This document shows, piece after piece, positions 2,861 through 62,678 of a stretch of DNA of 64,000 bases (within the stretch, counting starts at the first letter, position 1; each line of letters opens with the position of its first letter). Both the position numbers and the translations under genes were made by a program. The notes below the pieces were generated by a model that was not told the DNA's origin, did not search any database, and saw only the letters and a program-made list of their open reading frames with translations. The DNA is from Candidatus Doudnabacteria bacterium RIFCSPHIGHO2_02_FULL_42_25 (GTDB lineage: Bacteria > Patescibacteriota > Doudnabacteria > UBA920 > O2-02-FULL-48-8): contig MFEQ01000004.1 of the NCBI GenBank assembly GCA_001777665.1, positions 64,679 through 128,678 of the forward strand, read 5' to 3'.

Positions 2861-4298
2861 TATGAATCGCACGCTTATTAAAGATACAATCAACAAAACC
2901 GAGCAGGAAGTTTTAATTAAAGGCTGGGTCAACATCAGAAGAGATCATGGCAAATTGATTTTTTTGGATATCCGGGACCGATCTGGTTTGATTCAAGCCG
3001 TGATCAATCCTAAGGTTTCTGCTGAAGCGCATGCGGTTGCCTCTGAAATCCGCAACGAATATGTAGTCGAGCTGATCGGAAAAATCAATCCACGCGGCGA
3101 AAAACAAATAAATCTAGACCTCGAAACTGGAAAGATCGAAATCGAAGTTACAGGGCTAAAGATAATCAACGGTGCCAAGCCACTCCCCTTTGATATTACT
3201 TCAGACACGAGAACGGTTTCCGAAGAAATACGTCTAAAATACAGGTATTTGGATTTGAGAAATGAGCGAATGAAAAAAAATCTCAAGCTAAGACATAATG
3301 TCATCCAATTCATCAGAAATTATTTGATGGGACTTGATTTCACGGAAATCCAAACACCAATCCTTACTAAATCAACACCTGAAGGAGCAAGAGATTACCT
3401 AGTACCATCGAGGATTTATCCTGGTAATTTTTTTGCATTGCCTCAATCTCCACAACAATACAAACAGTTGTTAATGGTTGGTGGAATAGAACGATACTTT
3501 CAGATAGCTCCGTGTTTTCGTGATGAAGACGCCAGAGCCGATCGAAGTCCGGGAGAATTTTATCAACTCGATCTTGAAATGTCTTTTGTCGAACAGGAAG
3601 ATATTTTAGAGTTGACTGAAAAATTGTTTACCGATTTGGTAAAAACTCTTACTCCAGAAAAACATATAACTTTTTCTCCTTGGCCAAGAATTACCCACAA
3701 AGAAGCAAAAGCGAAATTCGGAAATGACAAACCAGATATGCGTAAAGATAAAAATGATCCGAATGAATTGGCTTTTTGTTGGGTTTTAGATTTTCCTCTT
3801 TTCACTGAACAAACCGAAGAAGATTTCTTTCACGGAGCAGGAGATAAATGGGGGCCTTCGCATCACATGTTTACTGCTCCCAAATCGGAAGATATTCCAT
3901 TACTAGATACAGATCCAGGAAAAGCTAGAGGGTTACAACACGATTTGGCTTTGAATGGTGTGGAAATTGGCGGAGGTAGCATCCGTATTCATGATCCAAA
4001 AATTCAGGAAAAGATTTTTGATTTGATTGGATTTACTAAAAAGCAGAAACAACGATTCAATCACATGCTAGAAGCTTTTGAATATGGCGTTCCCCCTCAT
4101 GGTGGCATAGCTCCAGGAATAGATCGATTAGTTAGAATTTTAGCAGGGGAAGAAAAAATTAGTGAGGTCATCGCTTTTCCTCTCTCTGGATCAGTTCGCG
4201 ACCCTATGATGGGTTCCCCTTCCGACGTGTCAGACAAACAACTCAAAGAATTACACATCAAAGTGGATTTACCAAAGGAGAAAAAAATAGATATTTAA
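2861..4298 (+). CDS. aspS: aspartyl-tRNA synthetase, short archaeal/eukaryal-type (likely non-discriminating)
   Basis: OB-fold N-terminal domain, class II motifs (QSPQQYKQLLMVGGIERYFQIAPCFRDED, GGGSIRIHD), about 479 aa without GAD insertion; start moved to ATG 2861 (track ORF starts at 2751 inside the convergent neighbour). Confidence 0.85.
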
Positions 4299-4300
4299 TT

Positions 4301-4424
4301 CCCCCTCTTAGAATAAGAGGGGGTTAGGGGGGAGTTAGATCTCAAGCGTTAAACAGCAGCTTAATCCTTAAAGGATATAACCCCTCCTAGCCTCCCCTTA
4401 ATATAAGGGGAGGAACAACAGCAT
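4301..4424. mobile_element. MITE-like palindromic element (family 1: CCCCTCTTAGAATAAGAGGGG ... CTCCCCTTAATATAAGGGGAG); miniature of the DUF559 element at 33796-34251
   Basis: Both hairpin ends match the inverted ends flanking the DUF559 ORF; same 120 bp unit present in reverse orientation at 55135-55252. Confidence 0.7.
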
Positions 4425-4442: not shown

Positions 4443-4511
4443 CCCATCTCGAACAGAGTGAGAGATCCCTCTTAAGAGCGATTTCTCGACTCGTTTCACT
4501 CGCTCGAAATG
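4443..4511. repeat. GC-rich hairpin repeat (family 2/3: CCCATCTCGAAC / GAGAGATCCCTC..GAGCGATTTCTC..CGAAATGG)
   Basis: Shares blocks with 56186-56240 and 62170-62193 and (reverse-complemented) 62604-62616. Confidence 0.6.
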
Positions 4512-4716
4512 GTTTACAAATTATATGCAATATCTTAAATCGGTCATAAATATTCTTTGGATCATAACTCTGATTATTGTAATAATTAATGATATCCAAA
4601 CACCAGGCACTGCACCTATACACTATTGGTATTTTTATGCTGCTTCAGTTATGATAATACTTAGGTTTATTGACGATAAATTTTATAAATCAAATAGTAA
4701 AAAATAACCGCTTTCC

Positions 4717-5190
4717 ATGGTTAATAAAATGATATCAAAACCTTTAGAAAAACTACTTAAAGCAAATAAAATCAAATACGAAATTGCGGAACACCGAAAA
4801 GTGTTCACGGCTATTGATGCTGCTGCAACGCAAGATTTAAAAACTGCTGAAGTCGCCAAAGCTGTACTTCTCAAGGGCAAAAACAATCTTTATTTGGCAG
4901 TTTTGCCTGCCGGTAACAACTGCGACTTTAAGGCGTTGAGTAAGCTTACCGCGGATAAAGTTTCCATGGCCAAGGAAAAAGATATTTCCAAAAATATCAA
5001 TGCCAAAATTGGTTTAATTCCCCCATTTGGTTCACTTTTCAAACTTCCCGTTTATCTGGATAAAAAATTACTGAAAAATAAAAAAATAAATTTACCAGCT
5101 GGATCATATACTGAATCTGTGGTTTTGAGTGTGAAAGATTATCAAAAACTGGAAAATCCGATTCTGGGAAACTTTAGTATCAAAAAATAA
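4717..5190 (+). CDS. YbaK/ProX-family aminoacyl-tRNA deacylase
   Basis: 157 aa, YbaK-like trans-editing domain pattern (GKNNLYLAVLPAGN...LIPPFG). Confidence 0.55.
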   Translation: MVNKMISKPLEKLLKANKIKYEIAEHRKVFTAIDAAATQDLKTAEVAKAVLLKGKNNLYLAVLPAGNNCDFKALSKLTADKVSMAKEKDISKNINAKIGLIPPFGSLFKLPVYLDKKLLKNKKINLPAGSYTESVVLSVKDYQKLENPILGNFSIKK

Positions 5191-5912
5191 TGGTCCAAAT
5201 CAAAACCGATCAATTTGAAGGGCCGCTCGATTTGCTTCTGACACTGATCGAAGAGCAAAAGCTCGATATATCCACTGTAGCATTAGCAAAAGTCACAGAA
5301 CAATTTTTGGATTATGTAAAAAATCTTCAGGTAAAAAATCCAATTAACTTAGCCGACTTTTTAGTCATCGCAGCCAAACTTTTAGTGATCAAATCCAAAT
5401 CGCTTTTACCAACTCTGGAATTGGGAGATGAAGAGGAAGAAGCGGCTTTTGATTTAACTGAAGCTTTGCTGCAATACAAAAAATACAAAGAGGTTGCGAG
5501 GCATTTCAGACGCATTGAACTTCGTCACACTCAATCCTGGACTAGAGATGTTGATTTCTCCGATCGAATCACTTTTGTCCCTGACCCGACCATCACTCCG
5601 CAAATCCTCTCCCAGAGCTTGCAAACACTGGCTATGGAACTGAAAGAGATTATCAAATTCCCTCGCCAAATAATGAAAGAGGTGGTGTCCATCTCTGAAA
5701 AAATCGCCCACATCCAGCAACTAATTTCGTCTCAAATTGAAACTTCGCTCGCTTCCCTCCTTAAAGAAAGTAAAAGCAAAACCGAAGTCATTGTAACTTT
5801 TCTAGCCCTGCTCGAACTGACCAAACAACGGATAATCCAGCTCGAACAAACTGAACATTTCGCCGACATCATTATTAAAAAACATCAGCTCCATGGACCC
5901 AGTCAAGCTTAA
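5190..5912 (+). CDS. scpA: segregation and condensation protein A
   Basis: N-terminal QFEGPLDLLLTLIEEQKLDI kleisin motif, followed directly by scpB. Confidence 0.8.
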   Translation: MVQIKTDQFEGPLDLLLTLIEEQKLDISTVALAKVTEQFLDYVKNLQVKNPINLADFLVIAAKLLVIKSKSLLPTLELGDEEEEAAFDLTEALLQYKKYKEVARHFRRIELRHTQSWTRDVDFSDRITFVPDPTITPQILSQSLQTLAMELKEIIKFPRQIMKEVVSISEKIAHIQQLISSQIETSLASLLKESKSKTEVIVTFLALLELTKQRIIQLEQTEHFADIIIKKHQLHGPSQA

Positions 5913-12941: not shown

Positions 12942-13919
12942 ATGAGAAGATATCTTGCTATAACCTTGGTTTTACTGGGTGTTTTCGTGTTCGTTCCACA
13001 GGCAGAAGCCCAAGGCTTGGTCTTAAGCCAATATTCTGTAAATGTGAATATGGGGCAGTCGCAAACGATAACAGTGACCACACCAGCTGGCCAAATTCCA
13101 AATTTAATCTCTCTGACCAATGGTACAGTGGCTTATGCTACCGTTAATAGCTATCAAATTACGATTTATGGACTCAACAACGGTAGTACGCAGATGACTT
13201 TTTGTACTTATGATAATTCTTGTGCTTCAGTAAGCGTTACAGTTGGTGGAGGTAATACAAATACTTATGGCCAGATTACATTTAGCCAAAATAATCCAAT
13301 CCTGACGGTGGGTCAATCGACGACTGTGAATATTTTTTCCAACATTAGCAATCCCAGTTACTACATCCAAAATAACACCAACTCGGGAATTGTATCCGCT
13401 TCACTCAATGGCTCTACACTATTCATCACAGCACTCAATACAGGTAGCACAAACGTAGTGATCTGTTCTAATAACATTAGCAGATGTGAAAGTGTATTCG
13501 TCATGGTCAGGACTTCGGGAAGTATTGCAGGGGCTTTAGTTTATAACAACGGCACACTGATCAATGACTACGGGACTATCTACATTACTTACAAGAATTC
13601 TAAAAGCGGCTTTACCTCGGCTCAAGCATTCACAAGCCTTGGCTACAAATGGGCAAATATCATTTCAGGCTCTACTGGCAATATTCCACATTCCGGTTAC
13701 AATATTTCTTCTGCTTCTGTAGCGCATCCTTGGGGATCCTGGATTAATAATGCCGGAACGATCTATTTCGTTCATGATTCTGGATTGATCCCAATCCCGA
13801 GCATGGGTATTTTCACCAGTAACGGTGGCGTGCTCAAAAGTGTCGTCGAAGCAAACAGCTACGACTTCAACAGACCAGTCCTGGCCCAAATGGACAACAA
13901 CGACTGGCGATTGAAATAA
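12942..13919 (+). CDS. secreted protein with tandem Ig-like (Big_2-like) repeats
   Basis: Signal peptide MRRYLAITLVLLGVFVFVPQAEA, three about 85-aa repeats. Confidence 0.5.
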   Translation: MRRYLAITLVLLGVFVFVPQAEAQGLVLSQYSVNVNMGQSQTITVTTPAGQIPNLISLTNGTVAYATVNSYQITIYGLNNGSTQMTFCTYDNSCASVSVTVGGGNTNTYGQITFSQNNPILTVGQSTTVNIFSNISNPSYYIQNNTNSGIVSASLNGSTLFITALNTGSTNVVICSNNISRCESVFVMVRTSGSIAGALVYNNGTLINDYGTIYITYKNSKSGFTSAQAFTSLGYKWANIISGSTGNIPHSGYNISSASVAHPWGSWINNAGTIYFVHDSGLIPIPSMGIFTSNGGVLKSVVEANSYDFNRPVLAQMDNNDWRLK

Positions 13920-14015
13920 ACTAAAATAAAAAGAACCGCTAGTTTTACCCAGCGGCGTGAATGTATGGTCGGCGCATACTGATTGTTTGCGCCGACCATT
14001 TCGTGAGGTCCTGTG

Positions 14016-14570
14016 CTACAGCAGGATATGGCAGGCGTCGACTTTGACCGACGACTCCGTGATCTCCTTCACCAGGAACAGGCCGTACTTGCCGGATTCC
14101 GTTGTCACGGCAAGGATCGTTCCCGGCGTCAGCGTCACGATCTGGTCGTTTCTCGAGATCGCGACACGAGCAACGCGTGCCAGCGCTGACCCATCCTTGA
14201 GCTCGCGGAGCTGTTGGAAGGTTTGCTCGGAAATACCCGCCGACGAAATCCATGTCTGGTTGAGCGCCCCGGCGACGACGCGGTCGTCCAGCAACTGGAG
14301 AGAAAGCAGCGCCTTGGGCGAGCAGACGCGCACGCCGTTGCCGAACACGAACGTCAGGTCAATCTCGTTGGCGTTCTGCTCCGCATCGTTGATCGGCCGG
14401 CTCTTGTTAGCCTTGCATTTCATCAGGTAGCACAAGGGCCTTTCACCGGTGAACTCGGCGCTGTAACGGTAAAACACCCCTCGCTCCGACGGAATCACCG
14501 GCTCTGACACCGGATTGGATAGATCTTGCGTTGACTGGTCTCTTGGCTCGACTTGCACGATACACCCTCC
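14016..14570 (-). CDS. hypothetical protein encoded in a GC-rich island
   Basis: GTG start near 14568 with AAGGAGGGTG SD; local GC about 55-58% against AT-rich surroundings; no family recognised. Confidence 0.4.
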   Translation of the reverse strand, partial: GGCIVQVEPRDQSTQDLSNPVSEPVIPSERGVFYRYSAEFTGERPLCYLMKCKANKSRPINDAEQNANEIDLTFVFGNGVRVCSPKALLSLQLLDDRVVAGALNQTWISSAGISEQTFQQLRELKDGSALARVARVAISRNDQIVTLTPGTILAVTTESGKYGLFLVKEITESSVKVDACHILL

Positions 14571-14691
14571 TTTGGGCTTCGCTGATTTACTGCGGTTAAA
14601 CTGAAAACTAGGGACACACTGAAGTGCCCCTAGTTTACCAAGTATCGGTAGGGCTTGCAACTAGCATATTTTAAACAATTTCGAATCCTAT

Positions 14692-14808
14692 TTAGTCCGC
14701 TGTGTGTTCGATTTTATCCCCAGCTTTTTTAAGGCCGTCTTTTACTTTTTCTTTCGTTTTCTCGTAGCCTTTCTCAATTTTTTCATCAAGATCACTAAAT
14801 GAACCCAT
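14692..14808 (-). CDS. small CsbD-like stress protein (38 aa)
   Basis: MGSFSDLDEKIEKGYEKTKEKVKDGLKKAGDKIEHTAD resembles CsbD/YjbJ-type small proteins; GAAAGGA SD; not in ORF track (<60 aa). Confidence 0.4.
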   Translation of the reverse strand: MGSFSDLDEKIEKGYEKTKEKVKDGLKKAGDKIEHTAD

Positions 14809-14818
14809 GGAATCCTTT

Positions 14819-14838
14819 CCTGCCTGCCGGCAGGCAGG
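14819..14838. repeat. perfect 20-bp palindrome CCTGCCTGCCGGCAGGCAGG (copy 1)
   Basis: Identical palindrome at 29607-29626 and 32015-32034; variant at 35660-35679. Confidence 0.9.
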
Positions 14839-14905
14839 CGTTAATGATGTAAAAGGATTCTATCATTTCAGGCAATTTAGAGAATTGGTATTTAGTCCAA
14901 TGTGA

Positions 14906-16339
14906 TTACCCAACCTCCAAAGAATCCAGAATTGCTTGATTGGTATCAGGAGTATACTTTTTAAGCGGCACTAGATTCTGTCCCCATGCTGTCATGATCG
15001 GATCTATAAATGCCCACATTGCCTTAACTTCAGCGGTTGATACAAACAAAGTTTGATCTCCAACTATACAATCCAGCAATAGTTTTTCGTATTCTTCGAC
15101 ATACTGCACTCGTTGAGCTGAATCACGCAAAATAAAATCAATCGTTCGTGACTCTTTTACCAAAGTAAGCCCGGGTTTCTTTGACCAAAACTCGATTGCA
15201 ATGCCTTCAGTAGGTTCCAGCGAAAAAGTAATCTTATTTTTATAATGTATTCCGCCTGGCGGGCAAAAGCATTCCTTGGGATGTGCGTAAGTGACTATTA
15301 TTTCCTTTCTCTGTTCGTGCATCCGTTTACCGCTTTCGAAAATAACTGGCACGTCTTTCCACCGAGGATCGGTAAGTGTGCCTTTAATCTTAAAATACGT
15401 CTCTGTATTAGAATTCGGGGGAACGAAGGCGATTGTCTGGTATCCCTCATACTGTGCTCGATAAGTTTGTGATTTTATTTCCTCCTGTGTCAAAAGCTTT
15501 AAATTGTTTAAAAGTTGGGCTCTTCTTAAATGGAGAGCGCTAGCTTGAAAGTCTAAAGGGTAATTCATTGTGATAAACGCCAGCATCTGCAACAGATGGT
15601 TTTGTCCCACATCTCTAAGCGCTCCCACACCATCATAAAAACTTCCTCTATGCTCCACTCCCAATGTCTCCCACAGTCTGATCTCGATTTTTTCTATAAA
15701 ATCCTTGTTCCAGGTCTTTTCAAAAATATCATTTGAAAACCGAAAGGTTAAAATATTTTGCACCATTTCTTTAGCCAGATAATGGTCAATCCTATAAATC
15801 TTGTTTTCTGCAAATAGATTTCCTAAAAGACTATCGAGTTTTTCAGCGGTCTCGGAATTTTTGCCAAATGGCTTCTCCACCAAAATTCTGGTTTCTACAT
15901 CTGTATTTTCGGGTCGGTCGCTTAGCCCCGAAAATTTCAACTGTTCGAAGATACTCTGATAAACATCCGGAGGCACGGCCAGATAGAACAGCCTGTTGGT
16001 TTTTGCTTGCCACGGCTCTTGGATTTTATCCAATAATTCTTTCAACGCTTCATACGATTCTTTTGATTCAAACAAACCGTGCTGGTACGAAAACAGTTTT
16101 GAAAATTCTTCAACCCTTTTTAGATCCGCATTTTGGATTTTGGCTCGGATCATTTCTGAGACAAAAGATTGAATGCTTTTGTCATCGAATGGTTTGCGCC
16201 CGAACCCCACGATCCGGAATTTTTCCGGAAGAGCATTTTTTAAATACAAGTTAAAAAGCGCTGGTGCTATTTTCTTTGCAGTTAAATCTCCAGTGATACC
16301 CAGGATTATTAAAATAGTTGGTGTGTGCTTGTCTGTCAT
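14906..16339 (-). CDS. zwf: glucose-6-phosphate 1-dehydrogenase
   Basis: Rossmann GITGDLTAKK, RIDHYLAKE (G6PD signature variant), EKPFG; start set to MTDKHTP (the track's 17 extra N-terminal codons run through the GC-rich hairpin leader). Confidence 0.85.
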   Translation of the reverse strand: MTDKHTPTILIILGITGDLTAKKIAPALFNLYLKNALPEKFRIVGFGRKPFDDKSIQSFVSEMIRAKIQNADLKRVEEFSKLFSYQHGLFESKESYEALKELLDKIQEPWQAKTNRLFYLAVPPDVYQSIFEQLKFSGLSDRPENTDVETRILVEKPFGKNSETAEKLDSLLGNLFAENKIYRIDHYLAKEMVQNILTFRFSNDIFEKTWNKDFIEKIEIRLWETLGVEHRGSFYDGVGALRDVGQNHLLQMLAFITMNYPLDFQASALHLRRAQLLNNLKLLTQEEIKSQTYRAQYEGYQTIAFVPPNSNTETYFKIKGTLTDPRWKDVPVIFESGKRMHEQRKEIIVTYAHPKECFCPPGGIHYKNKITFSLEPTEGIAIEFWSKKPGLTLVKESRTIDFILRDSAQRVQYVEEYEKLLLDCIVGDQTLFVSTAEVKAMWAFIDPIMTAWGQNLVPLKKYTPDTNQAILDSLEVG

Positions 16340-16342
16340 TAT

Positions 16343-16392
16343 TGGCAGCCCCACGGGGAATCGGACCCCGATTTGGTGGATGAGAACCACCT
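16343..16392. repeat. GC-rich triple-hairpin leader (CCCCACGGGG / CGGGGAATCGGACCCCG / GGTGGATGAGAACCACC)
   Basis: Seen directly; resembles the family-3 CCCCGGA..TCCGGGG hairpins. Confidence 0.6.
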
Positions 16393-16608
16393 GTCCTAAC
16401 CATTAGACGATAGGGCCTTGTTTAAACATAATTATAGTTTAATTGTTTTTAAAAATAAAGTCTCAAAGTTGACTCTATGTGTCGTCATCGACTACAGTAT
16501 ATGTAATTACAATGCTTGGTTTTACAGTGTAAAACTGATCCCTTCAGCCGGAAACTGCAGGATTGGGCGGCCGGAAACCGACACTAATCAAGCGTGTAAG
16601 GAGGGTTT

Positions 16609-17193
16609 ATGTTTTTCGGAAACAGCGGTCAGATTATCAGCATGTCTCATCACCTAACGCTTCCAGCGCAGTTCCGCCCTCAAAGACGTGAAGTGTTCTT
16701 CTGGTGGAGAATGCGCGTTCTCCTCCTATGGGGGATCATTGCTTTGAGTCTCGCAGGAATCTGGTGGTTCGGCCTAACAGGGCTGGAACCTGCCTTCGTA
16801 TTCACTGCAGCTTTTATGTATTCGTTGATCGATTGGCGGATATCAAAAGTTGTGGTTCTTCAACAGGCTGATCATCGTCTGGAACGATATAACCGGATGC
16901 TGAAATTGCTGGGTAACTGGAGTCCCGCTGGCTATGTCGACGCGAGGCAGACTGTAGACTATCCGACTGATCCCTGCAAATCAGCTGAATCCCTACTTTA
17001 CGAACTTGCTGCTGTGCGTCGGAATCTGGAAAAGGAGTGGGTCCAAACACCGTACGAAGAAAGAACGGAAGCTCACGACCACAATCTCTGGAGGTCACGA
17101 GAACGACTCAAAGAAGCGTACGACCTATTCCTCGAGTTCGGGCTCATTAAACCGACCGGTTACCAGAAATACTTCGATAAACCAGCGGCTTAG
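16609..17193 (+). CDS. hypothetical membrane protein in a GC-rich island
   Basis: TAAGGAGGG SD, GC about 50%, two TM helices; no family recognised. Confidence 0.4.
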   Translation: MFFGNSGQIISMSHHLTLPAQFRPQRREVFFWWRMRVLLLWGIIALSLAGIWWFGLTGLEPAFVFTAAFMYSLIDWRISKVVVLQQADHRLERYNRMLKLLGNWSPAGYVDARQTVDYPTDPCKSAESLLYELAAVRRNLEKEWVQTPYEERTEAHDHNLWRSRERLKEAYDLFLEFGLIKPTGYQKYFDKPAA

Positions 17194-17240
17194 TCACTAG
17201 CCGCTGTACCCGCCGACCGGTTCTCGGCGATTTTTTTAAA

Positions 17241-26347: not shown

Positions 26348-26421
26348 CAGTTACTCTCAAGCACAGAAATGTAGCGTGCCCATTTATGGGCTCGAGCTGA
26401 TAAATCAGCGCGCTACAAAAT

Positions 26422-26484
26422 CTACCCCGCCTAACCTCCAGCCCCCGGCGGCCGATGAGGGATGGAACATCTGTTCCAGGGGAG
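26422..26484. repeat. family-1-type end (CTACCCCGCCTAACCTCC...GGGGAGG) with expanded loop
   Basis: Shares CTACCCC(A/G)CCTAACCTCC with 34212-34229. Confidence 0.5.
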
Positions 26485-26553
26485 GAATTTTATAACCCAA
26501 ATAAAAAAGGCGGGTCCGGTGCAGAACCTGCCTGAAGCAAACCACAACGGCTA

Positions 26554-26835
26554 TTACGCCGTTTTTAGTTCAGGGTAAGCCCGAAGTCGGTCGCAGAGAG
26601 CCTGGAACTTATCCCGATCTACCGGAAGTTCCGGGTTCGGAGTGCCAACCGGCTCAACGTCGTTAACGACCCGACGGTACCAGGACAGGAAATCTCGAAT
26701 GATTGAGGTTTCCTTTGTATGACGGCTTGCGACGGGATAGGCCGTCATAAGCGCTTCACGGAGCGCGTAGCAATGCTTCAATGTCGGCTCCTCGATGTTG
26801 ACGACAAGCATTTCCTGCAATTCCTGTATGCTCAC
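26554..26835 (-). CDS. hypothetical small protein in a GC-rich island
   Basis: GTG start with GGGAGGAGGA SD; GC-rich; no family. Confidence 0.4.
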   Translation of the reverse strand: MSIQELQEMLVVNIEEPTLKHCYALREALMTAYPVASRHTKETSIIRDFLSWYRRVVNDVEPVGTPNPELPVDRDKFQALCDRLRAYPELKTA

Positions 26836-26890
26836 GAAAATCCTCCTCCCAGAGACGAGTTATTTTAACCTTTTATTAAAAACTGATCAA

Positions 26891-29606: not shown

Positions 29607-29626
29607 CCTGCCTGCCGGCAGGCAGG
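29607..29626. repeat. perfect 20-bp palindrome CCTGCCTGCCGGCAGGCAGG (copy 2), intercistronic
   Basis: Abuts stop codon of upstream gene, 13 nt before next ATG. Confidence 0.9.
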
Positions 29627-31524: not shown

Positions 31525-31729
31525 CGTTAATTATATAAAATAAAAACTGTCAGATTCAAAGACAGTGATTGCTTGCCGATTTATCGGCTCTCATCTGCTT
31601 AGCGAATTAAGGCATATAGCCAGCTAAGGTCTTTGAATTAAGTTCTCACATAGTATAAATGATTTTCGGCATCAGGTCAAGAGCGCAACCTCGATAAAAA
31701 ATCGGGTCCCATATAGGAACCCGGCGGGT

Positions 31730-31936
31730 CTAGTACCAAGCAGCTCTTCGCTGAAGTGAACCGTAATTGATACGATCCAGCTCCGCGTCAGAGAGTCGCA
31801 GCGCTGGGCCGTGCTGAGCGTCTTTGAGATCGACTTTCTTGTTTTTGATCTCTTTTCGTCGCGCCCGTTCAAGAAGACGCTTGTGTCTTGCTCGCCCCCG
31901 GACTCGTTTCCTCCGTATTCGCCATTGTATACTCAT
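31730..31936 (-). CDS. small basic protein (68 aa) in a GC-rich patch
   Basis: R/K-rich, GC about 52%, own terminator 31690-31728; no family. Confidence 0.4.
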   Translation of the reverse strand: MSIQWRIRRKRVRGRARHKRLLERARRKEIKNKKVDLKDAQHGPALRLSDAELDRINYGSLQRRAAWY

Positions 31937-32014
31937 CTTCGCACCCCTGTGGATAACAGCTTAACATAAAAACCCCAGCTTTCGCCAGAGTCCCTTTTTA
32001 CTTATTACTTTTTA

Positions 32015-32034
32015 CCTGCCTGCCGGCAGGCAGG
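32015..32034. repeat. perfect 20-bp palindrome CCTGCCTGCCGGCAGGCAGG (copy 3)
   Basis: 7 nt after mltG stop; flanked by TTACTTATTAC motifs. Confidence 0.9.
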
Positions 32035-33677: not shown

Positions 33678-33795
33678 GTACCTAATATTCTTTTTTATTT
33701 TTGTTTCTTTAGTAAGACTCTCACCTTACATACATAGTATAGCAAATTTTCCGGATTTTGTAAATAGGTATGAGTAATTTCGCCCGCAGTTTTTC

Positions 33796-34251
33796 CCCTC
33801 CTAGAATAGGAGGGGCTAGGGGTGGTAGAACCTAAGGCAACTCACGAGAAATTTTTTCAATTACACCTTCAATACTTTCCCGAACCTCATCATTCGTAAA
33901 ACGAAGAAGTCGAATTTGATTAGATTCTAAAAAAACTTCTCTTCTCTTGTCATATTCGTTTCCTTTTGGATCTAGAAAATGTGAATCACCATCTACTTCA
34001 ATTCCTAACCTTAATTCATTACAATAAAAATCCAAAATATAATTACCAATTCCATATTGTCGTCTAAATTTATAACCTTTAAGGTTCTTACCTCTTAGAT
34101 AATACCAAAGAATCTGCTCTGCTTGAGGCATATTGTTCCTTAGTTGCTGTCTTCTGCTTTTATATTCTTTTTTGTTGTATAAATAATCCATACTTTATTC
34201 TACCTCACATTCTACCCCACCTAACCTCCCCTATTCTAGGGGAGGAACAAC
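33796..34251. mobile_element. small palindrome-ended element carrying a DUF559 nuclease gene (ends CCCCTCCTAGAATAGGAGGGG / CCTCCCCTATTCTAGGGGAGG)
   Basis: Inverted hairpin ends flank the ORF; MITE-like ORF-less derivatives at 4301-4424 and 55135-55252. Confidence 0.65.
33832..34191 (-). CDS. DUF559 (Vsr-like PD-(D/E)XK) endonuclease-domain protein
   Basis: LW..LR...GYKFRRQYGIGNYILDFYCNELRLGIEVDGDSH hallmark of DUF559. Confidence 0.8.
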   Translation of the reverse strand: MDYLYNKKEYKSRRQQLRNNMPQAEQILWYYLRGKNLKGYKFRRQYGIGNYILDFYCNELRLGIEVDGDSHFLDPKGNEYDKRREVFLESNQIRLLRFTNDEVRESIEGVIEKISRELP

Positions 34252-34317
34252 TGCAAGCTTTCGCAAAGGCGATTTCCGGGATGGTTAAAAAACGTTAATT
34301 AATTTTTCTTCAAAAAA

Positions 34318-35659: not shown

Positions 35660-35679
35660 CCTGCCTACCGTCAGGCAGG
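35660..35679. repeat. 20-bp palindrome variant CCTGCCTACCGTCAGGCAGG (copy 4)
   Basis: In hup 5' region, next to a GC-rich island. Confidence 0.8.
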
Positions 35680-35769
35680 CAATCTGAAAACCAGTATAGC
35701 AAATCCTTAACAAATACGCTAGTTGCGGTCAAGGAATAAAAAAAGACCGCGGGTTTTAGTGACCGACGG

Positions 35770-35994
35770 TCAGGTCTGGACAATGTCGCTGGCAGCAGCC
35801 TTGGCCTGTTGTTCGGCGTGCTTCCGAGCGTTCCTGCGTACGCCATTCTGCGCCCAATTGTGCAAAATGCGTTCGGCGAAGGAAAGTTTTCTGTATGGAT
35901 TGTGGCGAAGTTCAAAAAACCACAGCCCAGCGCACGCGAGACTTCCGCCGACGACGATTATCTTCAGCCACTGTTGCCATGTCAAGTCAGCCAT
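35770..35994 (-). CDS. small membrane protein, GC-rich island
   Basis: AGGAGGTAATCCCG-ATG SD; one TM. Confidence 0.4.
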   Translation of the reverse strand: MADLTWQQWLKIIVVGGSLACAGLWFFELRHNPYRKLSFAERILHNWAQNGVRRNARKHAEQQAKAAASDIVQT

Positions 35995-36006
35995 CGGGAT
36001 TACCTC

Positions 36007-36147
36007 CTAGACTGGAAGTTTGAGGTTTTCCAGAATGTTCTCGCCGTCTGGAACCTTGGCGAGTCGTTCATAGCAGTACACGAGGGCAAAAACGCCAAAG
36101 CAGACAGTGCCCACAGCCACAACGACACCTACAACAACAAGTGTGTG
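36007..36147 (-). CDS. small hydrophobic protein, GC-rich island
   Basis: Likely start MHTLVVVGVV at 36147 with GAAGGGGG SD; single TM. Confidence 0.3.
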   Translation of the reverse strand, partial: HTLVVVGVVVAVGTVCFGVFALVYCYERLAKVPDGENILENLKLPV

Positions 36148-36154
36148 CATGCCC

Positions 36155-36454
36155 CTAGCCCCCTTCGTAGTAGACGCAAGGTAAATCGGTAAATGACGCG
36201 CGCCCTGTCCTGAAGTACTGGAATTCACGGTAGGACTCGAGTCGGCATTCGGGAAGCAATCGCGCCGGAGAACGATGAATCGCGCTTATGACCTCGTCTT
36301 CGAGATCCATGAGAAAAACTACAAGCCCCATGCATTCAGCGCCAATCGTATCGATGATCGTGACCTGATCCGCACCTATTTGCGTCAGTTCGTTGAGAAG
36401 TCCCGCTTTCGCCAGCGGGATCGAAATCGCCAGCTTGAAGTGCGTGACTTCCAT
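36155..36454 (-). CDS. small protein with P-II-like/ferredoxin-like fold pattern, GC-rich island
   Basis: AGAGGG SD; beta-alpha-beta pattern MEVTHFKLAISIPLAKAGLLNEL; family uncertain. Confidence 0.35.
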   Translation of the reverse strand: MEVTHFKLAISIPLAKAGLLNELTQIGADQVTIIDTIGAECMGLVVFLMDLEDEVISAIHRSPARLLPECRLESYREFQYFRTGRASFTDLPCVYYEGG

Positions 36455-36569
36455 GTGTATACCCTCTTGAAAGTTGAATTCGATAGTAAATAGTGTAGCT
36501 CAATTCTAAGGTTTCAACAAGGACTCTTGATTATTTTGCTATTTTTTGCTATAGTAATTTGGCTTTTTG

Positions 36570-36645
36570 GCCGTTGTAGCTCAGCTGGTAGAGCAACTCC
36601 ATGGTAAGGAGTAGGTCCGCGGTTCAATTCCGCGCAACGGCTCCA
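36570..36645 (+). tRNA. tRNA-Thr (anticodon GGU)
   Basis: Cloverleaf folded by hand: acceptor GCCGTTG/CAACGGC, anticodon loop ATGGTAA, TTCAATT T-loop, discriminator U, CCA encoded. Confidence 0.8.
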
Positions 36646-54456: not shown

Positions 54457-54480
54457 AAAAAAAGCGCCTTCCCTAAGGGG

Positions 54481-54936
54481 TCAGCGCGGCTTGGTCGCGA
54501 TCAACTTCGCAGGATCATGCATGCGAGTGAACGTTCCAACGAACAGTTCAGAAAGCGGTTTCCCTCTATCTACTCGTTGCATTTCTTCTTCTAGTCTTTC
54601 GTAGCCCTCCTTCATGATTGCCTCGTGAGCTGCACTGTCCTCACCATTGTGACTCTGGGCTTTCTCGATCTCTCGTTTGATCTCAAAAACAAGCTCTTGT
54701 CTCCGCACATCCATTGTCTGAATAACACGACCACCGCCCAGCTTAACTTTCGCTAACGCTAGGTAGACGGCACGAATATGCTGACCCATTGGATCAGTAG
54801 ATCTCGGGTCAAAGCGCGGTACCTGGATCAGGCCCGATAACCCGTCACTCATTTCCTGCGACGCCAAGTACCAGCCGTTGCCCTCCGCTTGTTCATACGT
54901 TAACTTGATGATCTTACGGTCACTGCTGTTAACCAA
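54481..54936 (-). CDS. hypothetical protein in a GC-rich island
   Basis: TTG start with GAGGTGA SD; GC about 52%; no family. Confidence 0.4.
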   Translation of the reverse strand: MVNSSDRKIIKLTYEQAEGNGWYLASQEMSDGLSGLIQVPRFDPRSTDPMGQHIRAVYLALAKVKLGGGRVIQTMDVRRQELVFEIKREIEKAQSHNGEDSAAHEAIMKEGYERLEEEMQRVDRGKPLSELFVGTFTRMHDPAKLIATKPR

Positions 54937-55134
54937 GGGTTCACCTCAATTCAATCATAACAAATTAAATCCTGTGGATAACACAACGATGCCAAAAATT
55001 GAAAATAACCTCAAAGCAGAGCGCCGAGAAGTCAAAAAACGCCCCCGAATGAAAGTCCACGGAGCCTCTTTGAAACGGCCATCTAAATTTGCGGGTCTAA
55101 AAATTGTAAAGAAGAAAAGTTAACTTGATGTTGC

Positions 55135-55252
55135 CAGCAGTTGTTCCTCCCCTTAATATAAGGGGAGCTAGGAGGGGTTATCCTTAAGCGTTAAGCTGCT
55201 GTTTAACTCTTGGAATCAACTCCCCCTAACCCCCTCTTATTCTAAGAGGGGG
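55135..55252. mobile_element. MITE-like palindromic element (family 1), reverse-orientation copy of 4301-4424
   Basis: Near-identical block order in reverse complement. Confidence 0.7.
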
Positions 55253-55268
55253 AATTTACAGCAAACTT

Positions 55269-56201
55269 ATGTCTAACAAACTAATAGTAATTTTAGGCCC
55301 TACCACCTCGGGGAAATCATCACTCGCTATCAATCTCGCCCAAAAATTCAATGGCGAGATTATTTCTGCTGACTCCAGGCAAGTCTACAAAGGCATGGAT
55401 ATCGGCACTGGTAAAGTTACTAAAGCAGAACAAAAACTAATCAAACATTATCTTCTCGACGTCTCCTCCCCAAAAAAGCAATTCACTGTTTCGGATTTTA
55501 AGCGTCTTCTAATTTCAGCGATCGCTCAAATTAGAGGAAAAGACAAATTGCCTTTCTTAGTTGGTGGCTCGCCTTTTTATATTTATGCGGCCATAGATAA
55601 TCTACAAATTCCAGAAGTCACACCCAATCAAAAACTACGTAATCAACTACGTAGAAAAACTACTACCCAACTTTTTGCCATGCTTAAAAAACTTGACCCA
55701 GTTCGAGCAAAAAATATTGATAAAAATAATCCTCGGAGATTGATAAGAGCTATTGAAATAGTAAAAGCGACGGGAAAGCCGGTACCACCCCCACCTAACC
55801 TCCCCCTGGCAGGGGGAGGTGCCTTGATCATTGGGATCAAGAAGTCTCGTAAACAGCTCTACAAGCTTATCGATCAACGACTTGAGCAAAGACTCAATCA
55901 AGGAATGGTTAATGAAGTCAAAAAACTTCTGAAACAAAAAATCAGCCACAAACGGCTGCAAGAAATGGGATTAGAGTATCGCTTTATTTCTCTTTATCTG
56001 CAAGATCATCTCACCTATGAGCAAATGGTTGAACAATTGAAAAGCGCTATTCACAAATTCAGCAAACGCCAAATGACTTGGTTCCAAACCGACAAACGTA
56101 TCAAATGGATCTCTTCAGAAAAACAAGCAGAACGACTAATTAAGGACTATATAAAACCATCTCGACCCCGGACTACGATCCGGGGGAGAGATCCCTCCTG
56201 A
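55269..56201 (+). CDS. miaA: tRNA dimethylallyltransferase
   Basis: P-loop GPTTSGKSSLAINLA, DSRQVYKGMDIGT; carries two in-frame palindromic insertions (55789-55819 and 56166-56201). Confidence 0.85.
   Translation: MSNKLIVILGPTTSGKSSLAINLAQKFNGEIISADSRQVYKGMDIGTGKVTKAEQKLIKHYLLDVSSPKKQFTVSDFKRLLISAIAQIRGKDKLPFLVGGSPFYIYAAIDNLQIPEVTPNQKLRNQLRRKTTTQLFAMLKKLDPVRAKNIDKNNPRRLIRAIEIVKATGKPVPPPPNLPLAGGGALIIGIKKSRKQLYKLIDQRLEQRLNQGMVNEVKKLLKQKISHKRLQEMGLEYRFISLYLQDHLTYEQMVEQLKSAIHKFSKRQMTWFQTDKRIKWISSEKQAERLIKDYIKPSRPRTTIRGRDPS
55789..55819. repeat. family-1 hairpin CCCCACCTAACCTCCCCC-TGGCA-GGGGGAGG inserted in-frame in miaA
   Basis: Shares 17-mer CCCCACCTAACCTCCCC with element end 34215-34231; translated as PPPNLPLAGGGA. 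Confidence 0.7.
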
Positions 56202-56366
56202 GAGCGATTTCTCACTAATCGTTCGAAATGGGTAATCCCATCCCGGACGCTACAAGCGAAGCGCGGGCGATCCGGGATCCACTACACTAATTAATATCAA
56301 ATGATTCTTATTTGAAATGGACCCCGGATCGGCTTGATCGCCGGAGAGACGATCAAGTCCGGGGTG
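56166..56366. repeat. composite GC-rich hairpin repeat (family 2/3) overlapping the miaA 3' end
   Basis: CCCCGGA-CTACGA-TCCGGGG encodes the last miaA codons; GAGAGATCCCTC block; ATCCCGGA..TCCGGGAT; ACCCCGGATC..GATCAAGTCCGGGGT. Confidence 0.7.
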
Positions 56367-62154: not shown

Positions 62155-62169
62155 CCATATTGACCTAAC

Positions 62170-62193
62170 CCATCCCGAACTTGATCCGGGATC
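62170..62193. repeat. family-3 hairpin CCCATCCCGAACTTGATCCGGGAT
   Basis: Left flank of GC-rich ppnP-like gene. Confidence 0.6.
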
Positions 62194-62233
62194 TTTTTCA
62201 TGCTAAAATCCTCCTACTGAATCAGGAGGAAAC

Positions 62234-62512
62234 GTGCTTACACATCGCATTCACGAAAACCGCAGAGGCTTAGGTAACGCCCAGAGTCTGTACTTCCAAG
62301 ACTCCTCGGATCGGTTCAGCGTCGGAATCGTTGCCCCAGGACGATACCCTTTCAAGAAGCAACCTGCTCAGAGCATAAAGGTCGTCCGCGGCGCGCTTGA
62401 AATCAACGGCATCAACTTCACACCTGAATCTGGTCCCTGCATTATTGAAGGGGGTCAGAACGCAACTGTAGTTGCGACTCAACCGTCGGCCTACATCTGC
62501 GAAGGCGACTAA
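62234..62512 (+). CDS. PpnP/YaiE-like (DUF1255) pyrimidine/purine nucleoside phosphorylase, GC-rich
   Basis: Alignable by eye to E. coli YaiE (YF..SVG..G.Y.F...GAL....EAG..F.VP...T.YLC); GTG start; SD AGGAGGA sits inside hairpin TCCTCCT-loop-AGGAGGA. Confidence 0.5.
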   Translation: MLTHRIHENRRGLGNAQSLYFQDSSDRFSVGIVAPGRYPFKKQPAQSIKVVRGALEINGINFTPESGPCIIEGGQNATVVATQPSAYICEGD

Positions 62513-62603
62513 TAATCGCCTGAACTTCAATTTACAGAGCCTGACTCGTTCGGCTCTTTCTTTTTTTAAAACATTAGCGAAAAATCACTTCTTAAGGCTC
62601 TGA

Positions 62604-62678
62604 AGAGGGATCTCTCCCCCGGATCGGAGTCCGGGGTCGAGATGGTTACCTATTTGGTCCGATCGTACAAATAGGTAA
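62604..62678. repeat. family-2/3 repeat (GAGGGATCTCTCCCCCGGATCGGAGTCCGGGG) plus hairpin TTACCTATTTG/CAAATAGGTAA
   Basis: Right flank of ppnP-like gene, abuts recX stop. Confidence 0.6.

What the first reader, a model, noticed from the sequence alone, without database searches (positions are those of the whole stretch)
13925..14690. Scattered GC-rich gene cassettes with canonical GGAGG Shine-Dalgarno sequences and GTG/TTG starts in an AT-rich genome
Eight short segments stand at about 50-58% GC against a background of about 35-40%. They are 13925-14690, 16560-17230, 26350-26860, 31690-31960, 35700-36500, 54470-54940 and 62230-62520, plus the repeat blocks themselves. Each carries one to three small ORFs with strong GGAGG-type ribosome-binding sites and often non-ATG starts: GTG at 14568, GTG at 26835, TTG at 54936, GTG at 62234. 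Native genes here use weaker AAAGGA-type sites. The products include a PpnP/DUF1255-like protein, a P-II-like fold protein, small membrane proteins and several unknowns. Several islands sit beside the 20-bp CCTGCC..GGCAGG palindrome or the CCGGA hairpin repeats. This looks like repeated acquisition of small foreign cassettes, possibly mobilised with the palindromic elements, and not like normal compositional variation.
Basis: partly seen in the sequence, partly recalled or inferred. Interest (0 to 1): 0.7.

Follow-up and report, generated by a model that had tools for sequence, protein, structure and literature searches.

The report
Persistently GC-rich conserved gene in CPR bacteria
The GC-rich patch at 13925-14690 is one self-contained gene of a protein family found across candidate-phyla-radiation bacteria; the gene stays far more GC-rich than its AT-rich host genomes over very long evolutionary distances, so it is not a recently inserted foreign cassette.

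Summary
The seven listed segments are 51-55% GC against 40.5% elsewhere. Their ORFs have higher GC3, stronger Shine-Dalgarno pairing and more non-ATG starts than 64 native genes. Details need correcting: the background is 41%, and the island-1 start is GTG 14558, not 14568.

Island 1 is one gene (14016-14558, minus strand, 180 aa, GC3 0.78). It has a GGAGGG site and hairpins on both sides. The window comes from a Doudnabacteria genome assembled independently many times.

The protein belongs to an unannotated family with a confident HmuY/DUF4466-like fold. It occurs in 39 species genomes, nearly all CPR. In 30 of 40 loci the gene is more than 8 GC points above its flanks. It has the top GC3 in 24 of 35 loci. 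Syntenic, co-diverging neighbour genes (ribosomal operon, S66 peptidase) match the host composition; this gene does not. Neutral decay after a single acquisition cannot give the observed values.

The GC richness is therefore an inherited, actively maintained family trait. The cause is unknown; selection on the mRNA or on translation is my inference. One copy sits moron-like in a 62% GC phage. The palindrome is a separate, conserved 5'-leader element. The other islands are orphans or near-orphans, and their origin remains open.

The parts
14016..14558 (-). Island-1 coding sequence: 180 aa, GTG start. Member of a conserved CPR-wide family with motifs VIPAVxGEFYSYS, LMKCKANKxRP, SGKYGLFLVKE and a C-terminal IDACHILL. 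GC 0.59; GC1/2/3 = 0.59/0.41/0.78.
14565..14570 (-). Shine-Dalgarno GGAGGG, 6 nt upstream of the GTG start.
   Evidence: Sequence. Anti-SD duplex -12.3 kcal/mol against a native mean of -2.9. Homologues mostly carry GGAGG or AGGAG.
14605..14636 (-). Strong stem-loop (13-bp stem) followed by UUUUCAGUUU, about 35 nt upstream of the SD. It is either the terminator of the zwf/small-ORF transcript or a 5'-leader hairpin of the island gene.
   Evidence: Inverted repeat I5. Fold of the 82-nt leader: -30.1 kcal/mol, z -5.05. No sigma-70 consensus promoter found in 13700-15000.
13965..13999 (-). First 3' hairpin after the stop codon (15-nt arms, 93% complementary).
   Evidence: I3; sequence.
13925..13956 (-). 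Intrinsic-terminator-like hairpin plus T-run downstream of the gene.
   Evidence: stem 13956-13935, then TCTTTTTATT. Homologues in other genomes also end in a hairpin followed by a T-run.
14692..14808 (-). Neighbouring 38-aa ORF of native AT-rich composition, between zwf and the island. Not part of the GC-rich unit.
   Evidence: No significant family hit.
14819..14838 (.). 20-nt perfect palindrome CCTGCCTGCCGGCAGGCAGG, 11 nt upstream of the small ORF's ATG. A separate conserved leader element, not a cassette end.
   Evidence: 4 copies, 0 expected by chance. Exact copies in Wolfebacteria and other Doudnabacteria loci, downstream of TTGACT-17-TATAAT promoters.
16609..17193 (+). Island 2 ORF: 194 aa, GC3 0.52, SD AAGGAGGG, no family hit.
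   Evidence: Viral scan negative.
26554..26835 (-). Island 3 ORF: 93 aa, GTG start, SD GGGAGGAGG, GC3 0.60. An orphan.
   Evidence: Only itself among 5.8 billion proteins.
31730..31936 (-). Island 4 ORF: 68 aa, very basic, GC3 0.49. The weakest island; coding status uncertain.
35770..36454 (-). Island 5: a three-gene GC-rich operon. Genes are 36454-36155 (99 aa), 36150-36007 (47 aa, one TM segment, SD AAGGAG) and 35994-35770 (74 aa, one TM segment, SD AGGAGG).
   Evidence: No significant family hits. AF2 of the 99-aa protein is poor.
54481..54936 (-). Island 6 ORF: 151 aa, TTG start, SD GAGGTGA, GC3 0.55. A rare family.
   Evidence: 8 clusters at E <= 1e-3 among 1.84 billion representatives. 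Alignment A2.
62234..62512 (+). Island 7 ORF: 92 aa, GTG start, SD AGGAGG, GC3 0.57. A divergent PpnP/DUF1255-like protein flanked by CCCCGGA..TCCGGGG hairpin repeats.

Best explanation
Island 1 is a single, insulated gene: a GGAGGG ribosome-binding site, a GTG start, 180 codons, and hairpins on both sides. It encodes a cytoplasmic protein of a conserved, unannotated family that is essentially restricted to CPR/Patescibacteria and has an HmuY/DUF4466-like beta fold.

Its GC-rich coding sequence (G and C equally enriched at third positions) and its strong SD are inherited traits of the family. They are maintained in place in AT-rich genomes; they are not the residue of a recent foreign insertion.

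Shown: the gene is conserved, mostly vertically inherited with conserved neighbours, and stays GC-rich far beyond synonymous saturation, while adjacent co-diverging genes take on the host composition.

Inferred: the GC content is held up by selection acting on the nucleic acid. Candidates are a stable mRNA that resists AU-directed decay, or codon-dependent control of translation. The strong SD may be a consequence of this, because a GC-rich, structured mRNA needs strong SD pairing in a genome where most genes initiate from AU-rich leaders with weak or no SD.

The biochemical role is unknown. Invariant Cys/Lys/His residues and recurrent S66, S51 or GNAT neighbours hint at binding or processing of a peptide-like or aminoacyl compound. 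The 20-nt palindrome belongs to the neighbouring gene's leader and is unrelated.
For: Spread and composition. There are 73 homologues of about 180 aa; the named ones are nearly all CPR. 39 GTDB species genomes carry the gene, nearly all of them Patescibacteria. The gene exceeds its flanks by more than 8 GC points in 30 of 40 loci, with a mean of +11 and a maximum of +23. It has the highest GC3 of all ORFs of at least 100 aa in 24 of 35 loci.

Synteny. In L001 and L010 the gene lies beside the same S13-S11-S4-RpoA-L17-L13-S9 operon. The ribosomal genes have GC3 0.27-0.38 in L001 and 0.56-0.70 in L010, yet the family gene has 0.73-0.77 and 0.85. TGT lies nearby in L011, L012 and L013. In eight Paceibacteria-type genomes the gene and the adjacent S66 peptidase gene align as one nucleotide block and co-diverge (amino-acid distance r 0.61). 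The S66 dS runs from 0.95 to saturation. In the six AT-rich genomes of this set the family GC3 is 0.51-0.80 against 0.27-0.34 for S66.

Neutral bound. With the S66 dS as clock, and even assuming an ancestral GC3 of 1.0, neutral two-state decay gives at most 0.31-0.62. All 15 pairs exceed their bound.

Phylogeny and sampling. The gene tree splits into a Doudnabacteria-type clade and a Paceibacteria-type clade. No near-identical donor exists among 5.8 billion proteins; the best hit is 61% identical. The gene is present in every independent assembly of this species listed.

SD and structure. SD strength correlates with island status, and most homologues have a strong SD plus a terminator hairpin. 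The model is confident and matches DUF4466 and HmuY-like structures.
Against: No direct evidence shows which property is selected. The mRNA does not fold better than synonymous shuffles (mean z -1.1; window z -0.27), and there is no conserved overlapping ORF.

Polarised synonymous changes in six close pairs run 64 S->W against 22 W->S. This suggests present-day decay rather than equilibrium. However, parsimony with saturated outgroups biases the count in this direction, and the AT-rich neighbours show the mirror-image bias (67 against 34).

A few lineages encode the protein with AT-rich codons (L028 and L029, GC3 0.28), so high GC is not obligatory.

The S66 and GNAT neighbour types are intermixed in the gene tree, and the Wolfebacteria copies fall in two subclades, so some transfer has occurred.

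A copy nested in the Doudnabacteria clade sits in a 62% GC phage head module. A GC-rich mobile pool therefore exists.

The family is patchy: 39 species carry it. The pattern search gives only a lower bound.
Confidence: 0.55

Rival explanations
1. Recurrent acquisition or allelic replacement from a GC-rich mobile pool. On this view the family lives mainly in about 60% GC phages or their hosts as a moron-like accessory gene. CPR genomes repeatedly pick up fresh copies, so each resident copy is young and not yet ameliorated.
For: One IMG/VR contig (L049, 62% GC) has lambda-type terminase, portal, capsid and cement genes. It carries a family copy on the opposite strand between portal and terminase, with its own terminator and a divergent small gene, and the copy's GC equals the phage GC. 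That copy nests inside the Doudnabacteria clade. Its terminase is closest (43-46%) to phages of Roseobacter, Acidithiobacillus and Paracoccus. Doudnabacteria copies sit in at least three different contexts. Polarised changes show an S->W excess. GC1 and GC2 are also raised (0.59/0.41), as expected for a gene shaped in a GC-rich replicon. [quoted passage not shown]
Against: Only 1 of 2.9 million viral contigs carries the family. There is no hit in 50,697 phage or 72,556 plasmid records. No sampled sequence is more than 61% identical to the window's protein. Synteny with ribosomal, TGT, S66, S51 and GNAT genes, and co-divergence with S66, would require repeated replacement at the same site. Mobile DNA is usually more AT-rich than its host (established knowledge, Rocha and Danchin 2002).
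Confidence: 0.25
2. A single ancient horizontal acquisition from a GC-rich donor that is still ameliorating neutrally.
For: The composition is anomalous at all three codon positions. There is an S->W excess. Some lineages are fully AT-rich (L028, L029). Gene GC correlates with flank GC (r 0.55).
Against: With the adjacent S66 gene as clock, the observed GC3 exceeds the neutral maximum in all 15 pairs, even from an ancestral GC3 of 1.0. Doudnabacteria-type copies that are only 40-60% identical in protein still have GC3 0.73-0.87.
Confidence: 0.07
3. Assembly chimera or contaminant reads, or a structured non-coding RNA mistaken for an ORF.
For: GC-rich patches in AT-rich genomes are often RNA genes. 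GC-rich DNA also yields long spurious ORFs, as on the + strand here.
Against: The same contig was assembled independently more than 20 times. The same anomaly recurs in about 30 other genomes. There is no Rfam match even at E <= 1 and no excess folding. The protein alignment is well conserved, and AF2 gives pLDDT 90.
Confidence: 0.02

Closest known systems
Phage morons (independent transcription units added to phage genomes; Hendrix and colleagues; review PMC3594210)
   Same: A single gene with its own ribosome-binding site and terminator, whose base composition differs from its neighbours. One family member (L049) sits exactly in a moron-like position, on the opposite strand between portal and terminase.
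   Different: The window copy and about 40 others are in cellular CPR chromosomes next to housekeeping genes. They have conserved neighbours and class-level phylogenetic structure. No promoter was identified.
Horizontally acquired genomic islets and the amelioration model (Lawrence and Ochman 1997; established knowledge)
   Same: A local compositional and codon-usage anomaly with atypical translation signals.
   Different: The anomaly is GC-rich in an AT-rich host, whereas foreign DNA is usually AT-rich. It is shared by orthologues in about 30 genomes and persists beyond the neutral decay bound. There are no integrase, tRNA-edge or direct-repeat hallmarks.
HmuY-family hemophores and DUF4466 proteins of Bacteroidota (PDB 3h8t, 6eu8, 6r2h, 8b6a, 4ei0)
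   Different: Sequence identity is at most 14%, and there is no Pfam hit. There is no signal peptide or lipobox; the N-terminus is polar and disordered. The conserved residues are Cys48, Lys52, Cys176 and His177, not the HmuY His-His heme ligands. The organisms differ: CPR, not Bacteroidota.
Gene-specific GC elevation attributed to selection, e.g. gene transfer agent genes (PMC7360931, from its abstract)
   Same: A defined gene set whose GC content and amino-acid composition bias are attributed to selection, not to foreign origin.
   Different: Different genes and organisms, and a different proposed cause (energy cost of protein production). Here the effect is strongest at synonymous sites (GC3 0.78) in a single small gene.
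Integron gene cassettes
   Same: A small ORF followed by a 3' hairpin. Homology between some loci ends just after that hairpin.
   Different: The hairpin is a perfect short stem plus a T-run, that is, a terminator, not an attC site. There is no integrase and no cassette array.

Membership tests
Recently acquired foreign islet (HGT) | Base composition and codon usage atypical for the host | tested here: met
   GC 0.59 against 0.40; GC3 z 7.2
Recently acquired foreign islet (HGT) | Absent from, or differently placed in, relatives, with no shared history with flanking genes | tested here: not met
   Synteny with the S13-S9 operon (L001/L010), TGT, S66, S51 and GNAT genes; co-divergence with S66. 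The strict empty-site test failed for lack of close relatives.
Recently acquired foreign islet (HGT) | Compositional anomaly decays toward the host value as divergence accumulates (amelioration) | tested here: not met
   Observed GC3 exceeds the neutral maximum in all 15 pairs
Recently acquired foreign islet (HGT) | Mobility hallmarks at the borders (integrase, transposase, tRNA edge, direct repeats) | tested here: not met
   None among the annotated genes within 10 kb on either side. No flanking direct repeats around 13925-14690. tRNA-Glu lies 1.7 kb away, beyond zwf.
Phage moron | Own terminator and translation signals | tested here: met
Phage moron | Own promoter | tested here: inconclusive
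   No sigma-70 consensus found. A weak TTGCAA-17-TAAACT candidate overlaps the upstream hairpin (read from the sequence).
Phage moron | Inserted between genes of a phage or prophage | tested here: not met
   The window neighbours are zwf, a pilin-like secreted protein and the dcw cluster. The feature is met only for the homologue in L049.
Integron gene cassette | attC recombination site and an integrase or cassette array | tested here: not met
   The 3' hairpins are terminator-type. No integrase is annotated.
HmuY family / DUF4466 | Match to the family sequence model | tested here: not met
   No Pfam or NCBIfam hit at E <= 0.1 apart from chance-level AbiEi_3_N
HmuY family / DUF4466 | Shared fold | tested here: met
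HmuY family / DUF4466 | Secreted lipoprotein with heme-ligating residues | tested here: not met
   The N-terminus is polar and disordered, with no hydrophobic signal segment. Heme binding itself cannot be tested here.
PpnP / DUF1255 (island 7 product) | Score above the curated family cut-off | tested here: inconclusive
   Pfam PF06865: 26.9 bits against a cut-off of 25. NCBIfam equivalog NF007875: 20 against 143.
Structured non-coding RNA | Match to a known RNA family, or folding beyond what composition gives | tested here: not met
   Rfam at gathering and at E <= 1: only tRNAs, nothing in the islands. MFE against synonymous shuffles: z -0.27.

The most novel reading that the evidence does not exclude
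The GC-rich codon set plus strong SD may be a selected expression signature, not a scar of transfer. In AT-rich CPR genomes, where most genes have weak or no SD, a small set of genes (this family, and perhaps the window's other islands) would be written in G/C-ending codons. Their mRNAs would then survive AU-directed decay, or be translated only when particular tRNAs or ribosome states are available. This would be the mirror image of rare-codon control such as bldA/TTA in Streptomyces. A more speculative variant is that the signature tunes expression to a GC-rich partner cell or phage. The family copy nested in a 62% GC phage of proteobacterial type would then mark gene flow between CPR cells and the phages of their hosts.
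Probability: 0.25. Interest if true: 0.8.

Novelty: new variant of a known kind. Interest (0 to 1): 0.6.

Why it matters
Compositional islands are routinely read as recent horizontal transfer. Here that reading fails a quantitative test. An orthologous gene keeps GC3 of 0.5-0.87 in genomes whose other genes have GC3 of 0.2-0.45, next to syntenic neighbours, across divergences at which neutral sites are saturated.

If selection on the nucleic acid is responsible, this family is a clean natural system for asking what holds GC up against the universal AT mutation bias. It would also warn against GC-based HGT calls in CPR genomes.

The work also defines a conserved, unannotated CPR protein family with a confident HmuY/DUF4466-like fold and invariant Cys/Lys/His residues. 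It gives a rare sequence-level link between a CPR lineage and a phage of a GC-rich bacterium.

Tried and rejected
- Known RNA families: Rfam at gathering and at E <= 1 gave only tRNAs.
- Overlapping or antisense gene as the cause of high GC3: no alternative frame is consistently open against synonymous shuffles (mean z below 1; the first attempt timed out).
- Selected mRNA structure: MFE against synonymous shuffles gave mean z -1.1 and window z -0.27 (the first attempt timed out).
- Empty-site test through zwf relatives in metagenomes: the nearest relatives are only 55% identical and share no synteny.
- Viral-contig scans with islands 2, 3, 5c and 6: nothing found. The I6 alignment was too divergent to scan with.
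- PHROGs and PADLOC for all island proteins: nothing meaningful.
- INPHARED phages and PLSDB plasmids for the family protein: no match.
- BFVD fold search: nothing significant. The AFDB50 fold library was unavailable.
- Palindrome as a cassette boundary: rejected. It is not adjacent to the family gene in other genomes, and it sits in the 5' leaders of other genes.
- Polarised substitution counts as a test for equilibrium: run but judged inconclusive, because parsimony with saturated outgroups produces the same pattern, as the mirror-image result in the AT-rich neighbours shows.
- Homologues of the other islands among the 40 fetched CPR loci: none.
- L032, a GC-rich contig binned as Thermoanaerobaculia: Pfam gave no informative annotation.
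Full report
**1. Observation**

The window is 41.2% GC. Island 1 is the outlier. It peaks at 64-68% GC in 100-200-nt windows. Its ORF is 59% GC, whereas 543-nt windows elsewhere average 40.4% (SD 2.8%) and never exceed 49.4%.

I compared 64 native genes with the nine island ORFs.
- GC3 is 0.385 +/- 0.055 in native genes and 0.49-0.78 in island ORFs (Mann-Whitney p 8e-7).
- Predicted anti-SD pairing averages -2.9 kcal/mol in native genes. It is -9 to -12 in seven of the nine island ORFs, and -6.3 and -2.5 in the other two (p 6e-5).
- Non-ATG starts are 9 of 64 in native genes and 5 of 9 in island ORFs.

Three corrections apply.
- The background is about 41%.
- The island-1 start is GTG at 14558, with GGAGGG at 14565-14570, not 14568.
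- The 'P-II-like' label has no support, and the PpnP assignment is marginal.

Rfam finds only five tRNAs and nothing in the islands, even at E <= 1.

**2. Source and assembly**

The island proteins carry NCBI names from Candidatus Doudnabacteria MAGs; P0075, for example, is from RIFCSPLOWO2_01_41_7. They occur on more than 20 independently assembled contigs of up to 205.9 kb from NCBI, JGI, ENA and Logan. A chimeric assembly is excluded.

Island 1 lies in an ordinary chromosomal setting, between zwf (14906-16354) and a pilin-like secreted protein (12942-13919), near the dcw cluster.

**3. Anatomy of island 1**

Island 1 holds one minus-strand gene, 14016-14558 (180 aa). Third-position bases are G 76, C 65, A 20 and T 20, so the enrichment is general for G and C and is not a preference for C-ending codons.

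Upstream there is a 13-bp stem-loop with a U-tract at 14605-14636; the 82-nt leader folds with z -5.05. Downstream there are two hairpins, 13965-13999 and a terminator-like one at 13935-13956 followed by a T-run. No sigma-70 consensus promoter was found. The long + strand ORFs in this region are by-products of the high GC.

**4. The protein family**

The search found 73 homologues of about 180 aa at 35-61% identity. None has a Pfam domain, and the named ones are nearly all CPR. The alignment shows strong motifs (VIPAVxGEFYSYS, LMKCKANKxRP, SGKYGLFLVKE, C-terminal IDACHILL) and invariant Y30, Y32, C48, K52 and H177.

There is no signal peptide. I therefore treat the match as a shared fold, not as membership of those families. 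PHROGs, PADLOC, NCBIfam, INPHARED and PLSDB give nothing.

**5. The key result: GC richness is a family trait**

A scan of one genome per GTDB species found 39 loci. Nearly all are Patescibacteria: Doudna-, Wolfe-, Zambryski-, Lloyd-, Lipton-, Nomura- and Taylorbacteria, and Paceibacterota. A few bins carry other labels.
- In 30 of 40 loci the gene exceeds its roughly 12-kb flanks by more than 8 GC points. The mean is +11 and the maximum +23, with GC3 up to 0.875.
- It has the highest GC3 of all ORFs of at least 100 aa in 24 of 35 evaluable loci.
- Most copies have a GGAGG or AGGAG site and end in a hairpin followed by a T-run.
- Further metagenome contigs show the same pattern.

**6. Inheritance**

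The neighbour-joining tree splits into a Doudnabacteria-type clade, which contains the window's copy, and a Paceibacteria-type clade. Conserved neighbourhoods exist in both.
- In L001 and L010 the gene lies beside the same S13-S11-S4-RpoA-L17-L13-S9 operon. The ribosomal genes are 62-86% identical, with GC3 0.27-0.38 in L001 and 0.56-0.70 in L010. The family gene has GC3 0.73-0.77 and 0.85.
- L011, L012 and L013 share a nearby TGT gene.
- Paceibacteria-type loci fall into three neighbourhood types: an adjacent S66 LD-carboxypeptidase gene, an S51 peptidase gene or a GNAT gene. All three were confirmed with Pfam. Nucleotide homology covers the family gene plus that neighbour and nothing else in the flanks.

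In the S66 group the two genes co-diverge (amino-acid distance r 0.61), and the S66 dS runs from 0.95 to saturation. In the six AT-rich genomes of that group the family GC3 is 0.51-0.80, against 0.27-0.34 for the gene next door.

I used the S66 dS as a clock in a two-state neutral decay model. Even an ancestor with GC3 of 1.0 could retain only 0.31-0.62, and all 15 pairs exceed their bound. A single acquisition followed by neutral amelioration is therefore rejected. A recent acquisition is at odds with the synteny, and no sequence more than 61% identical to the window's protein exists among 5.8 billion proteins.

**7. What maintains the GC richness?**

Three simple causes were tested and rejected.
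- There is no conserved overlapping reading frame.
- The mRNA does not fold better than synonymous shuffles.
- It is not the general codon bias of highly expressed genes, because ribosomal genes in the same loci have the host composition.

What remains is selection on a bulk property of the nucleic acid, such as mRNA stability or codon-dependent translation. That is my inference.

The strong SD could be a consequence of this. A GC-rich, structured mRNA needs SD pairing in a genome whose native genes mostly lack it.

Several results count against a simple selection equilibrium.
- Polarised synonymous changes in close pairs run 64 S->W against 22 W->S. Parsimony with saturated outgroups produces such a skew by itself, however, and the AT-rich neighbours show the mirror image (67 W->S against 34 S->W).
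- A few lineages have AT-rich versions of the gene (L028 and L029, GC3 0.28).
- The S66 and GNAT neighbour types are intermixed in the tree.

**8. The mobile-pool rival**

One of 2.9 million viral contigs carries the family. L049 is 62% GC and encodes a gpA-type terminase, a lambda-type portal, a capsid protein, a cement protein and a methylase. The family gene sits between portal and terminase on the opposite strand, with a divergent 167-aa gene, an AT-rich promoter region and its own terminator. This is the classic moron arrangement (definition in PMC3594210).

The copy's GC equals the phage's GC. It nests within the Doudnabacteria clade. The terminase resembles those of Roseobacter, Acidithiobacillus and Paracoccus phages at 43-46% identity. 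A GC-rich mobile copy therefore exists, and gene flow between a CPR lineage and a phage of a GC-rich bacterium is likely (compare PMC10746230).

One such copy, against about 40 chromosomal and largely syntenic ones, does not make the pool the main home of the family. I give this rival 0.25.

**9. The palindrome and the hairpin repeats**

CCTGCCTGCCGGCAGGCAGG occurs four times in the window, where none is expected by chance. It sits about 10-30 nt upstream of the start codons of a 38-aa ORF, a 135-aa gene and the HU gene.

The exact 20-mer also occurs in Wolfebacteria (L018, twice, each about 30 nt downstream of an identical TTGACT-17-TATAAT promoter), in another Doudnabacteria genome (L011) and in the metagenome contig L084. 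In those loci it is not adjacent to the family gene. It is a conserved leader element or operator, not a cassette end.

**10. The other islands**

- I3 and I7 have no relative other than themselves by word-seeded search of 5.8 billion proteins.
- I6 has 8 clusters among 1.84 billion representatives.
- None of the island proteins has a viral, defence or family match.
- Island 5 is a three-gene operon that includes two one-TM peptides.
- Other sporadic GC-rich ORFs occur in the fetched CPR loci, but only the island-1 family recurs among them.

The origin of these islands (foreign, de novo, or the same selected signature) remains open.

**11. Verdict**

The anomaly is real. It is more interesting than 'foreign cassette', because it is an inherited and maintained compositional signature of a conserved CPR gene. 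The mechanism of maintenance and the protein's function are unresolved.

Noticed in passing
window 14819-14838, 29607-29626, 32015-32034, 35660-35679; L018 2135-2154 and 7210-7229; L011 3452-3471; L084 3024-3043: The 20-nt perfect palindrome CCTGCCTGCCGGCAGGCAGG is conserved exactly between Doudnabacteria and Wolfebacteria genomes. In the window it lies about 10-30 nt upstream of the start codons of a 38-aa ORF, a 135-aa gene and the HU gene. In Wolfebacteria two copies follow an identical 70-nt TTGACT-17-TATAAT promoter-leader. It looks like a conserved 5'-leader hairpin or operator shared across CPR, and it is not in Rfam.
   Followed up: partly
window 14689-14704 and 14889-14904: A 16-nt direct repeat (TATTTAGTCCGCTGTG / TATTTAGTCCAATGTG, 200 nt apart). 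On the minus strand one copy contains the stop codon of the 38-aa ORF and the other that of zwf. The 200-bp unit of palindrome plus small ORF may be an insertion or duplication at the 3' end of zwf. It could also be chance.
   Followed up: no
L049 (IMG/VR UViG_3300037258_001063) 4699-5868: A 62% GC phage head module with a proteobacterial-type terminase carries a copy of the CPR family that nests in the Doudnabacteria clade. The copy is paired with a divergent 167-aa gene that has no family hit. This suggests gene flow between CPR bacteria and phages of GC-rich bacteria.
   Followed up: partly
L014, L019, L021-L023, L033, L017, L039 (S66); L027, L035, L036, L038, L043, L046 (S51); L016, L018, L020, L025, L026, L029, L030, L041, L044, L048, L085 (GNAT): In Paceibacteria-type genomes the family gene is recurrently adjacent to one of three enzymes that act on peptides or aminoacyl compounds: an S66 LD-carboxypeptidase (MccF-like), an S51 peptidase or a GNAT acetyltransferase. 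This may be a functional hint. It was not tested.
   Followed up: partly
window 62167-62193, 62597-62647, 56155-56205, 4450-4479: Hairpin repeats of the form CCCCGGA..TCCGGGG flank the PpnP-like island 7 on both sides. The 51-nt copy at 62597-62647 is 94% complementary to 56155-56205. This is a dispersed repeat family of unknown nature.
   Followed up: no
window 4297-4422 and 55137-55256; 33786-33837 and 34203-34254: Long dispersed inverted repeats rich in CCCCTC/GAGGGG hairpins. One pair is 35 nt long, 100% complementary and 51 kb apart. Another pair brackets the 119-aa gene 33832-34191.
   Followed up: no
window 16343-16417 and 36570-36645: tRNA-Glu(CUC) and tRNA-Thr(GGU), which read G/C-ending codons, lie within 0.2-1.8 kb of GC-rich islands 1, 2 and 5. 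This may be coincidental, but it bears on the codon-dependent translation idea.
   Followed up: no
L001 6800-8000: In GCA_034680565 a stretch of about 1.2 kb at 48-52% GC, with no called gene, lies immediately upstream of the family gene in a 42% GC genome. Its content is unknown.
   Followed up: no
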